Virus record (IMG/VR): IMGVR_UViG_3300014515_000027
Reading direction: 5' to 3' (one strand)
DNA: 8,834 nt
Source: a virus
Taxonomy: Duplodnaviria; Heunggongvirae; Uroviricota; Caudoviricetes
The notes under the pieces are model-generated. The model saw nothing but the letters and a program-made list of their open reading frames with translations, searched no databases and was not told the DNA's origin. Within the stretch, counting starts at the first letter, position 1; each line of letters begins with the position of its first letter. This document shows positions 7,519-7,941 of this stretch, piece by piece. A program made the translations under genes and the position numbers.

Positions 7519-7547
7519 TTGGCGAGGTGACGTGAGTTAAGTAGAAT
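7519..7547 (+). promoter_or_regulatory. Candidate promoter for the hok-family mRNA
   Basis: -35 TTGGCG (7519-7524), 17-nt spacer, -10 TAGAAT (7542-7547). The predicted transcription start (~7554) coincides with the 5' complementary element at 7552-7565. Confidence 0.35.
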
Positions 7548-7551
7548 GGCT

Positions 7552-7565
7552 GCGGGTGCTTGAGG
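7552..7565 (+). promoter_or_regulatory. 5' element of the hok mRNA (tac-like), complementary to the 3' element at 7895-7909
   Basis: GCGGGTGCTTGAGG is the reverse complement of CCTCAA-c-GCACCCGC (7895-7909): 8 bp plus 6 bp with a one-nucleotide bulge. Confidence 0.5.
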
Positions 7566-7723
7566 CTATCTGTCTCAGGCATGAACACTGAAAGGCAGAT
7601 AGAGAAAAGCCCCAGTTAACATTTCGCGTCCTGCAAGACGCTTAACATTAATCTGAGGCCCAATCTATGTCTCACAAATGTAGGTTAGCCTCTTACGTGC
7701 CGAAAGGCAAGGGGAAGCAGGCT

Positions 7724-7845
7724 ATGAAGCAGCAAAAGGCGATGTTAATCGCCCTGATCGTCATCTGTTTAACCGTCATAGTGACGGCACTGGTAACGGC
7801 CAGACGGAGGTCGCTGTCTTCACAGCTTACGAACCTGAGGAGTAA
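7724..7845 (+). pseudogene. hok: hok/gef-family (HokD/RelF-like) toxin gene disrupted by an internal deletion and frameshift
   Basis: From the ATG at 7724 the frame gives MKQQKAMLIALIVICLTVIVTALVT (Hok N-terminus), then diverges into ARRRSLSS... The Hok C-terminus (N)GQTEVAVFTAYEPEE-stop is encoded from 7798 to 7845 in a different frame. The conserved RK-LCE-R-R core between the two parts is absent. The 71-aa track ORF 7667..7882 is the frameshifted read-through. Confidence 0.75.
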
Positions 7846-7894
7846 GAGACCTGGCGGGGGAGAAATCCCTCGCCACCTCTGATGTGTCAGGCAT

Positions 7895-7909
7895 CCTCAA
7901 CGCACCCGC
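7895..7909 (+). promoter_or_regulatory. 3' element of the hok mRNA (fbi-like), complementary to the 5' element at 7552-7565
   Basis: Direct complementarity as described for 7552-7565; lies just upstream of the terminator hairpin. Confidence 0.5.
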
Positions 7910-7913
7910 ACTT

Positions 7914-7941
7914 AACCCGCTTCGGCGGGTTTTGTTTTTTT
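7914..7941 (+). terminator. Rho-independent terminator of the hok-family transcript
   Basis: Hairpin AACCCGC-TTCG-GCGGGTT followed by TTTGTTTTTTT. Confidence 0.7.

What the first reader, a model, noticed from the sequence alone, without database searches (positions are those of the whole stretch)
7519..7941. hok/gef-family locus with intact RNA architecture but a broken toxin reading frame
The Hok N-terminus (MKQQKAMLIALIVICLTVIVTALVT) and C-terminus (GQTEVAVFTAYEPEE) are both present but in different frames. The conserved RK-LCE-R-R core between them is missing; relative to the HokD/RelF sequence as I recall it, this is a deletion of roughly 34 nt. The non-coding parts look preserved: a candidate promoter, 5'/3' complementary elements and a terminator. 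This looks like recent inactivation of the toxin while the regulatory RNA scaffold persists, either a snapshot of addiction-module decay or a locus retained for an RNA-level function.
Basis: partly seen in the sequence, partly recalled or inferred. Interest (0 to 1): 0.65.

Follow-up and report, generated by a model that had tools for sequence, protein, structure and literature searches.

The report
Broken hok toxin gene in prophage
A prophage-borne hok/sok "addiction" module of E. coli has lost 34 bases from the middle of its toxin gene while all its RNA control elements remain; this is an ordinary, very recent (or artefactual) gene-killing deletion, one of many independent such lesions seen in this gene family.

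Summary
Window 7519-7941 is a hokD-type hok/mok/sok type I toxin-antitoxin locus in the early region of a lambdoid E. coli prophage (DicF/DicB ... QueH-hok-DUF968-RusA-Q). Compared with every relative, exactly 34 nt are missing at 7797/7798 (2-nt CG microhomology). This removes Hok residues 26-36 (RKDLCEVRLRT) and shifts the frame. The promoter, the leader (Rfam RF01794, 120.5 bits), mok start, Sok promoter and hairpin, 12-bp tac/fbi end-pairing and terminator are unchanged.

The closest genomes (MSB1_4I, AF3) differ over 8.8 kb by four SNPs plus these 34 nt. AR_0013 is 100% identical over 7480-7960 apart from the gap. I did not find the junction in a hok context in 5,426 complete E. coli genomes, phages, GTDB representatives, IMG/VR or JGI metagenomes.

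So the scaffold is intact because there has been no time for decay, not because it is demonstrably retained. Other hokD-type alleles with independent 13-, 16-, 34- and 43-nt deletions or 1-nt frameshifts exist in public assemblies, so toxin-ORF disruption recurs. An assembly or laboratory artefact cannot be excluded without reads. Interest is low: a new allele of a known kind of decay.

The parts
7519..7547 (+). hok/mok mRNA promoter, TTGGCG-17 nt-TAGAAT
   Evidence: Consensus scan. It sits 6 nt upstream of the 5' end of the Rfam leader match.
7554..7941 (+). Predicted full-length mok/hok mRNA, 388 nt here and 422 nt in intact alleles
   Evidence: 5' end inferred from the promoter and from the start of the Rfam model. 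3' end is the terminator. MFE -162 kcal/mol, z -7.2. The intact allele gives -173.7, z -7.15.
7554..7565 (+). tac element (5' end, GGGUGCUUGAGG), which pairs with fbi
   Evidence: 12 bp with 7895-7907, pairing probability 0.97-1.0 in both the deleted and intact alleles.
7554..7729 (+). Conserved hok leader, the segment to which Sok is antisense
   Evidence: Rfam RF01794 'sok', 120.5 bits, gathering score 59, model positions 1-157/157, E 9e-28. The match is in the sense orientation of hok mRNA.
7655..7669 (+). mok Shine-Dalgarno GAGG (7655-7658) and mok ATG (7667-7669)
   Evidence: Sequence. The SD pairs with GCCUC at 7688-7692 (dcb-like) in the MFE of both alleles.
7667..7882 (+). mok reading frame, in frame with hok, now a 71-aa frameshifted fusion
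   Evidence: ORF list. This product is not on record anywhere.
7682..7710 (-). Candidate Sok promoter TTGCCT-17 nt-TAACCT
   Evidence: Read from the reverse complement. Placed by positional homology with the R1 Sok promoter, which I recalled from memory. It falls below the threshold of the scan.
7603..7675 (-). Candidate Sok antisense RNA, about 70 nt: long hairpin followed by GGGGCUUUUCUCU
   Evidence: Fold -30 kcal/mol, z -4.96. The ends are inferred, not mapped.
7724..7798 (+). hok codons 1-25 (N-terminal transmembrane segment), intact
   Evidence: Matches Pfam HOK_GEF profile positions 1-20 only.
7797..7798 (+). Deletion junction: the CG shared by both ends of the missing 34 nt
   Evidence: Alignments. 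BLAST coordinates.
7798..7845 (+). Hok C-terminal remnant GQTEVAVFTAYEPEE plus TAA, now out of frame. It includes the TAC (7828-7830) that is the TadA A-to-I editing codon in hokD.
   Evidence: The editing site is taken from bioRxiv 10.1101/2025.08.07.668861.
7799..7882 (+). New +1-frame tail ARRRSLSSQLTNLRSKRPGGGEIPRHL plus TGA. Net charge +6, against -2 for the native domain.
7852..7875 (+). 3' stem-loop, 10 bp with a GAAA loop. It corresponds in position to the hairpin that protects the processed (active) hok mRNA in R1. The frameshifted ORF now reads through it.
   Evidence: Folds. Its role in R1 is from PMC9841398. Equivalence with the R1 hairpin is inferred.
7895..7907 (+). fbi element CCUCAACGCACCC
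   Evidence: Pairs with tac.
7914..7941 (+). Intrinsic terminator

Best explanation
This is a hokD-type hok/mok/sok type I toxin-antitoxin module carried in the early (nin-like) region of a lambdoid E. coli prophage. A single, very recent 34-nt internal deletion has pseudogenised its toxin gene.

The deletion joins codon 25 to the +1 frame. It removes the conserved RKDLCEVRLRT core, including the only Cys of the C-terminal domain. It replaces the acidic periplasmic domain with a strongly basic 27-residue tail. mok is in frame with hok in this subfamily, so it is hit by the same lesion.

Everything that acts at the RNA level is untouched: the hok promoter, tac/fbi end-pairing, the mok SD and its complementary boxes, the Sok promoter and Sok RNA, the 3' hairpin and the terminator. 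The locus most likely still makes hok mRNA and Sok RNA but no longer makes a functional killer, so it can no longer hold the prophage by post-segregational killing.

Shown here: the deletion, its uniqueness, the identity of the flanks and the predicted unchanged fold. Inferred: transcription, loss of toxicity and neutrality of the lesion.
For: - Deletion: exactly 34 nt against all relatives.
- Background: MSB1_4I and AF3 cover the whole 8,834-nt window at 100.0% (rounded) plus the 34 nt. For MSB1_4I I counted four SNPs. AR_0013 is 100% identical over 7480-7960 apart from the gap.
- Uniqueness: the best hits for an 81-nt junction query in 5,426 E. coli genomes are all split in two pieces spanning 115 nt. 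The 34-mer junction is absent from GTDB representatives and JGI metagenomes. The 18-mer junction occurs only in unrelated DNA. The fused products are not on record.
- Toxin domain: Pfam HOK_GEF gives 80.6 bits for the intact protein. The frameshifted 52-aa product gives 19.9 bits, below the cutoff of 22, and covers only profile positions 1-20/42.
- RNA scaffold: Rfam leader at 120.5 bits. Both alleles show the same tac/fbi, SD and start-codon pairings. The deleted bases pair only within the hok coding region.
- Literature: for R1 Hok, an 8-aa C-terminal FLAG tag causes loss of toxicity, and stop-codon substitutions giving a 17-aa longer protein were recovered as toxicity suppressors (PMC9841398). 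A C29-C46 disulfide is essential for HokB toxicity (bioRxiv 10.1101/2025.08.07.668861). Degenerated chromosomal hok loci are documented (PMC2887945).
- Recurrence: independent deletion and frameshift alleles of the same gene exist.
Against: - No reads are available, so an assembly, consensus or laboratory artefact is not excluded.
- Loss of toxicity is not demonstrated. Single alanine substitutions of conserved R1 Hok residues, including C31A and E32A, did not abolish toxicity on overexpression. The transmembrane helix is fully retained here.
- Transcription of hok mRNA and Sok from this locus is predicted only.
Confidence: 0.8

Rival explanations
1. The 34-nt gap is not a natural allele. It could be an assembly or consensus error, a mutation that arose during laboratory passage or cloning of the sequenced isolate, or an edit in the source record.
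For: The junction is absent in a hok context from every collection searched. Neither fused product is on record among 153 billion gene positions. The background is otherwise nearly identical to known genomes. hok loci are known to pick up deletions under selection in the laboratory: 22 of 91 suppressor clones carried a single deletion and 43 more had complex mutations (PMC9841398).
Against: A clean 34-nt loss with 2-nt microhomology is not the typical signature of read or polishing error, which usually gives 1-2-nt homopolymer indels. Comparable 13-nt and 43-nt deletions occur in independent public assemblies. The window carries four further SNPs against its nearest relative, as expected for a distinct natural isolate.
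Confidence: 0.12
2. The toxin-dead locus is kept because its RNAs are useful. Sok, and possibly the untranslatable hok mRNA, would act in trans on the near-identical hok loci of sister prophages or incoming phages and plasmids, as an anti-addiction or immunity module.
For: The Sok promoter, the Sok hairpin and the target leader are intact. E. coli genomes hold a median of 2 and up to 9 places similar to this locus, so cognate targets for trans-acting Sok plausibly exist.
Against: There is no signature of retention. The allele is private and the locus shows zero substitutions against intact alleles, so intactness of the RNA parts is expected by default. An intact locus supplies the same Sok, so the deletion adds nothing. 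No cross-talk was seen between R1 hok/Sok and chromosomal hok loci (PMC9841398), although those are much more diverged.
Confidence: 0.04
3. The frameshifted 52-aa peptide, the Hok transmembrane helix plus a basic tail, is itself a functional small membrane protein: still toxic, or with a new role.
For: The ORF stays open for a near-native length, 52 aa against 51. The transmembrane segment is complete. Several independent alleles read into the same +1-frame tail. R1 Hok tolerates single substitutions of conserved residues.
Against: - The search that found the shared tail was biased towards that tail. An allele in the other frame also turned up (P0017).
- The tail charge changes from -2 to +6, which by the positive-inside rule disfavours the native N-in/C-out topology. 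This is inference.
- An 8-aa C-terminal FLAG tag causes loss of R1 Hok toxicity, and 17-aa readthrough extensions were recovered as suppressors.
- Pfam no longer recognises the domain.
- Translation must pass through the 3' protective hairpin, with the stop codon only 5 nt beyond it.
Confidence: 0.04

Closest known systems
Intact hokD-type locus of the same prophage in E. coli MSB1_4I (NZ_LR898874.1), AF3 (NZ_OZ547117.1) and AR_0013 (NZ_CP032204.1); toxin WP_000813262.1
   Same: Same prophage context (QueH - hok - DUF968 - RusA - Q). For MSB1_4I, every base of the 8.8-kb window matches apart from four SNPs. The RNA elements are identical.
   Different: These genomes carry the 34 nt and encode a full 51-aa Hok (MKQQKAMLIALIVICLTVIVTALVTRKDLCEVRLRTGQTEVAVFTAYEPEE).
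hokD (relF) of E. coli K-12, Qin prophage, downstream of relBE
   Same: Same toxin subfamily. From the K-12 sequence as I recall it, it differs from the intact allele only at I34/L34. The hok ORF and 3' UTR are 98.3% identical to the window (H30).
   Different: It is the mirror-image defect. K-12 keeps the toxin ORF, but similarity starts only 14 nt upstream of the hok ATG. There is no promoter, tac, mok start or Sok region, and relBE sits there instead. The window keeps the whole RNA scaffold and has lost the ORF.
hok/mok/sok of plasmid R1, the paradigm type I toxin-antitoxin and post-segregational killing system
   Same: Same parts list: tac/fbi end-pairing, mok SD with complementary boxes, antisense Sok over the mok start, a 3' hairpin and a roughly 50-aa Hok (PMC9841398; window).
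   Different: This locus is prophage-borne, not plasmid-borne. mok is in frame with hok here, whereas I recall it being out of frame in R1. An intrinsic terminator follows fbi. The toxin frame is broken.
Other disrupted hokD-type alleles in public assemblies (for example GCA_019373875.1, 13-nt deletion; ERZ1478578, 43-nt deletion; clusters P0001-P0016)
   Same: Independent internal deletions or 1-nt frameshifts in the same central part of the gene, many reading into the same +1-frame tail.
   Different: The endpoints differ. None shares the 7797/7798 junction. Some sit in the relBE-hokD context, which already lacks the leader.
Degenerate chromosomal hok loci of E. coli K-12 (hokA, hokB, hokC, hokE; Pedersen & Gerdes 1999, cited in PMC2887945)
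   Same: The same phenomenon: hok/sok homologues that are no longer functional killers. IS150 insertions next to hok loci recur in experimental evolution (PMC5419217).
   Different: From memory of Pedersen & Gerdes 1999, those are inactivated by IS elements, point mutations or rearrangements, not by an in-ORF microdeletion.

Membership tests
hok/sok (Hok/Gef) type I toxin-antitoxin locus | Complete Hok/Gef toxin domain (Pfam PF01848) in one reading frame | tested here: not met
   The 52-aa product scores 19.9 bits, below the cutoff of 22, and covers profile positions 1-20 of 42 only. The intact relative scores 80.6 bits over 1-42. The missing half lies out of frame at 7798-7845.
hok/sok (Hok/Gef) type I toxin-antitoxin locus | Conserved, structured hok mRNA leader | tested here: met
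   Rfam RF01794, 120.5 bits against a gathering score of 59, full model length, at 7554-7729 on the + strand.
hok/sok (Hok/Gef) type I toxin-antitoxin locus | 5'-3' end-pairing (tac/fbi) that closes the full-length mRNA | tested here: met
   12 bp between 7554-7565 and 7895-7907, probability 0.97-1.0, identical in the intact allele. Both elements are invariant in six prophage alleles, so no covariation could be scored.
hok/sok (Hok/Gef) type I toxin-antitoxin locus | mok leader ORF with its own SD, overlapping hok | tested here: met
   GAGG at 7655-7658 and ATG at 7667, in frame with hok as in the annotated Mok/MokW proteins of relatives. The same deletion frameshifts it.
hok/sok (Hok/Gef) type I toxin-antitoxin locus | Antisense Sok gene (promoter, hairpin, U-rich end) opposite the mok start | tested here: inconclusive
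   TTGCCT-17-TAACCT on the minus strand at 7710-7682, and a hairpin RNA of -30 kcal/mol, z -4.96. The promoter is below the threshold of the scan. It was placed by recalled homology to R1. No expression data.
hok/sok (Hok/Gef) type I toxin-antitoxin locus | 3' processing to a translatable truncated mRNA; Sok-dependent RNase III decay | not testable with these tools
   Needs Northern blots or RNA-seq. A suitable 3' hairpin (7852-7875) is present.
hok/sok (Hok/Gef) type I toxin-antitoxin locus | Toxin kills the host when the antitoxin is lost (post-segregational killing, rifampicin activation) | not testable with these tools
   Experimental. Loss is predicted from the domain loss and from R1 mutagenesis.
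Degenerate (pseudogenised) hok locus | Clear orthology to intact loci plus a disabling lesion that is derived, not ancestral | tested here: met
   All listed hits among thousands of E. coli and phage homologues carry the 34 nt. The flanks are 100% identical to those of intact alleles.

The most novel reading that the evidence does not exclude
The toxin-dead locus is functionally an 'orphan antitoxin'. It still makes Sok, and a harmless hok mRNA decoy, and so protects the host against killing by near-identical hokD-type modules on sister prophages or incoming lambdoid phages (anti-addiction). On this reading, recurrent central deletions in hokD-type genes reflect selection for such conversions, not neutral decay.
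Probability: 0.04. Interest if true: 0.5.

Novelty: new member of a known kind. Interest (0 to 1): 0.14.

Why it matters
It matters little on its own. Degenerate hok loci have been described since 1999, and toxin genes of addiction modules are expected to decay once they are chromosomal.

Three modest points are of use:
- Annotation pipelines would call a 52- or 71-aa "Hok family" ORF here, or miss the locus, so it should be flagged as a pseudogene.
- It is the mirror image of the textbook K-12 hokD/relF. There the ORF is intact and the scaffold is gone; here the scaffold is intact and the ORF is gone. The two make a natural pair for separating RNA-level from protein-level effects of a prophage hok locus.
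- The homology search shows that independent microdeletions and frameshifts in the central part of hokD-type genes recur in public assemblies. That could be quantified to ask whether loss of prophage Hok is neutral or selected.

Tried and rejected
- Covariation test of tac/fbi on six prophage alleles: both elements are invariant, so the test is uninformative. I relied on thermodynamic prediction and on the literature instead.
- 18-mer junction scans of IMG/VR, GTDB representatives and JGI metagenomes: 38 hits, all in unrelated organisms such as Frankia and Chloroflexota. None holds the hok TM-coding 21-mer, so these are chance matches at that pattern length.
- Exact look-ups of the 71-aa and 52-aa products and of P0001: nothing on record. 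One search failed because I gave a wrong start coordinate.
- Microhomology- or repeat-mediated deletion: only 2 nt (CG) are shared, close to chance. An AAC/AAC alignment does not reproduce the junction. No mechanism is claimed.
- Two 34-nt deletions offset by 12 nt (the window and P0001, the latter deduced from the protein only): I considered a structural hotspot of fixed length. Other alleles have 13, 16 and 43 nt, and my search could only recover lengths equal to 1 mod 3, so I treat this as coincidence.
- Programmed frameshifting restoring Hok: rejected. Even an in-frame read would lack the 11 core residues.
- The promoter scan did not report a minus-strand promoter. The Sok promoter was placed by hand.
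- Some loci (L003, L005-L008) were not exported to the Python sandbox, so they were handled with DNA alignment instead.

Full report
**1. What is in the sequence**

Window 7519-7941 holds a complete hok-type transcription unit on the + strand.
- A sigma-70-like promoter (TTGGCG-17-TAGAAT, 7519-7547) and an intrinsic terminator (7914-7941) are the only such sites in 7400-8050.
- From 7554 to 7729 the sequence matches Rfam RF01794 ('sok') end to end at 120.5 bits, against a gathering score of 59 (E 9e-28).
- That match is in the sense orientation of the hok mRNA and runs from its 5' end to the hok start codon. It therefore certifies the conserved leader to which Sok is antisense, not the Sok strand itself.
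- mok starts at 7667 with SD GAGG at 7655-7658. hok starts at 7724, in the same frame.
- On the minus strand, TTGCCT-17-TAACCT (7710-7682) sits where I recall the R1 Sok promoter to lie. The RNA it would produce (about 7675 to 7603) folds into a long hairpin followed by a U-rich stretch (-30 kcal/mol, z -4.96).
- This promoter is too weak to pass the scan, so Sok is inferred, not shown.

**2. The lesion**

hok codons 1-25 give MKQQKAMLIALIVICLTVIVTALVT (7724-7798). The frame then reads ARRRSLSSQLTNLRSKRPGGGEIPRHL up to a TGA at 7880-7882. GQTEVAVFTAYEPEE plus TAA lies one base out of frame at 7798-7845.

Alignment with intact alleles shows that exactly 34 nt are absent (CGAGGAAAGACCTCTGCGAGGTACGACTCCGAAC), with a CG shared by both ends. 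This removes R26-T36 (RKDLCEVRLRT) and shifts the frame by +1.

Pfam HOK_GEF scores the intact protein at 80.6 bits over profile positions 1-42. The window's 52-aa product scores 19.9 bits, below the cutoff of 22, over positions 1-20 only.

**3. Derived, private and very young**

A 481-nt query found 12,270 places in 4,938 of 5,426 complete E. coli genomes. Every listed full-length place is split into two pieces by the extra 34 nt. An 81-nt query centred on the junction behaved the same way, with the best hits all in two pieces spanning 115 nt. So did 102 phage records.

The whole 8,834-nt window matches E. coli MSB1_4I and AF3 at 100.0% (rounded) over 8,868 nt. A base-by-base comparison with MSB1_4I gives four SNPs (2430, 2950, 8465, 8466) plus the gap. 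AR_0013 is 100% identical over 7480-7960 apart from the gap.

Searches for the junction elsewhere:
- The 34-mer junction is absent from 185,579 GTDB species representatives and from JGI metagenomes.
- An 18-mer junction pattern gave only chance hits in unrelated organisms. None carries hok sequence.
- Neither the 71-aa nor the 52-aa product is on record among 153 billion gene positions.

All relatives, including diverged phage alleles at 88% identity, have the core, so the short form is a deletion and not an ancestral architecture.

**4. The RNA scaffold**

ViennaRNA folds of the deleted (388 nt, -162 kcal/mol, z -7.2) and intact (422 nt, -173.7 kcal/mol, z -7.15) mRNAs share these features:
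- the same 12-bp closure of the 5' end (7554-7565) by CCUCAACGCACCC (7895-7907), with pairing probability 0.97-1.0;
- the same leader hairpins and the same pairing of the mok SD;
- the same partner for the hok start region.

In the intact fold the 34 deleted bases pair only with other bases inside the hok coding region (205-207 and 278-293 of the mRNA). According to PMC9841398 the dcb box overlaps the Sok promoter, so it too lies upstream of the deletion.

'Intact RNA architecture' therefore holds at the level of prediction. One inferred side-effect is that the new ORF runs through the 10-bp GAAA-loop hairpin at 7852-7875, and its stop codon lies 5 nt beyond it. In R1 the equivalent hairpin protects the processed, translatable mRNA. 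Translation through it, or a processed 3' end upstream of the new stop, could destabilise the message or yield non-stop complexes. This is speculation.

**5. Is the toxin dead?**

It is not tested, but it is likely.
- The only Cys of the C-terminal domain and the following conserved residues are gone.
- The domain's net charge changes from -2 to +6. By the positive-inside rule this disfavours the native N-in/C-out topology (inference).
- In R1 Hok, an 8-aa C-terminal FLAG tag causes loss of toxicity, and stop-codon substitutions giving a 17-aa longer protein were recovered as toxicity suppressors (PMC9841398).
- A C29-C46 disulfide is essential for HokB toxicity, and hokD acquires C46 by TadA editing of the TAC codon (bioRxiv 10.1101/2025.08.07.668861). 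That codon (7828-7830) is now out of frame.

The caveat is that single alanine substitutions of conserved R1 residues, including C31A, did not abolish toxicity on overexpression, and the transmembrane helix is intact here.

**6. Context**

The locus lies in a lambdoid prophage early region. The gene order is exonuclease, DicB, DicF sRNA (1009-1060, 77 bits), repressor/Cro-like pair, YdaT, replication genes, DUF1627, DUF977, QueH, hok/sok, DUF968, RusA, Q. hok genes are known to be enriched in prophages.

K-12's hokD/relF is the mirror image. Similarity to the window begins 14 nt upstream of the hok ATG, behind relBE, so K-12 has the ORF but not the leader, mok or Sok.

**7. How ordinary is this?**

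A homology search with the frameshifted product recovered about sixteen 90%-identity clusters of other hokD-type proteins that read into the same +1-frame tail.
- From the protein sequences they represent independent deletions of 13, 16, 34 (12 nt upstream of this one) and 43 nt, plus larger ones, and several 1-nt frameshifts.
- Two were verified at the DNA level: 13 nt in GCA_019373875.1, in a relBE-hokD context, and 43 nt in ERZ1478578.
- Some clusters have several members (P0004 has 8; P0014 has 7 on 5 contigs). Single-member ones could include assembly errors.

The 2026 Hok survey discarded 5.1% of unique CDS as too short and 2.6% for internal stops. Fozo et al. note that chromosomal hok loci 'have degenerated' in some strains. 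IS150 insertions next to hok loci recur in experimental evolution. Disruption of hok toxin genes is thus a known, recurrent phenomenon. Only this particular allele is new.

**8. Interpretation**

The best explanation (confidence about 0.8) is a very recent private pseudogenising deletion in an otherwise functional prophage hok/sok module. The RNA elements persist because no time has passed. The alternative 'retained for an RNA function' has no positive evidence, since zero substitutions against intact alleles means selection cannot be read.

An artefact (assembly error, laboratory passage, edited record) is the main rival (about 0.12) and can only be settled with reads or PCR. A functional neo-peptide and an anti-addiction role for the orphan Sok are low-probability readings (about 0.04 each).

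**9. Verdict**

Novelty: a new member (allele) of a known kind. Interest is low (0.14). A specialist would not be surprised, and no open question becomes testable beyond the modest use of this allele as a natural 'RNA-only' counterpart to K-12 hokD.

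Noticed in passing
window 1009-1060 (- strand); 793-1011 (- strand): A full-length DicF sRNA (Rfam RF00039, 77 bits against a gathering score of 48), next to dicB in the relatives' annotation. There is also a sub-threshold STnc100-like match (31 bits against 47). This marks the element as a Qin/Rac-like lambdoid prophage.
   Followed up: partly
window 7854-7935 (+ strand): The hok 3' UTR (protective hairpin, fbi, terminator) gives a full-length but sub-threshold match to Rfam isrK, a Salmonella Gifsy-1 Hfq-binding sRNA (27.2 bits against 50; E 2.6e-4 in the local search). 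The match rests mainly on the hairpin-linker-terminator layout. IsrK might derive from a hok-type 3' UTR. This was not tested.
   Followed up: partly
window 7667-7882 and proteins P0015, P0001-P0016: The +1 frame of hokD-type loci is open from the mok region to a TGA 36 nt past the hok stop (P0015 reads it throughout). Any frameshift into it therefore yields a near-native-length ORF with the same basic tail ...ARRRSLSSQLTNLRSKRPGGGEIPRHL. Length and stop-codon filters for 'degenerated' Hok would miss such alleles.
   Followed up: partly
proteins P0001-P0016; loci L009 1501-1680, L010 1501-1707: Independent microdeletions (13, 16, 34, 43 nt) and 1-nt frameshifts cluster in the central part of hokD-type genes in unrelated assemblies. 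One of them (P0001) is also 34 nt, offset by 12 nt. It is unknown whether this reflects selection against the toxin, a deletion-prone sequence or assembly noise.
   Followed up: partly
window 6800-7486 (+ strand): A 228-aa QueH (epoxyqueuosine reductase, DUF208) gene sits immediately upstream of hok inside the prophage. It is a tRNA-modification gene carried as prophage cargo, and RefSeq relatives annotate it the same way.
   Followed up: no
window 7828-7830: The TAC codon (in a TTACGAA context) reported as the TadA A-to-I editing site that recodes Tyr46 to Cys in hokD is preserved but now lies out of frame. The RNA might still be edited, with no coding consequence.
   Followed up: no
window 8465-8466: Two adjacent substitutions (GG here, AT in MSB1_4I) lie in the DUF968 gene. 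Together with single SNPs at 2430 and 2950, these are the only other differences from the nearest genome over 8.8 kb.
   Followed up: no
window 7887-8066 (- strand): RefSeq relatives annotate a 59-aa 'hypothetical protein' (WP_001112736.1) antisense to the hok fbi and terminator. It overlaps the start of the next + strand gene and is probably a spurious call.
   Followed up: no
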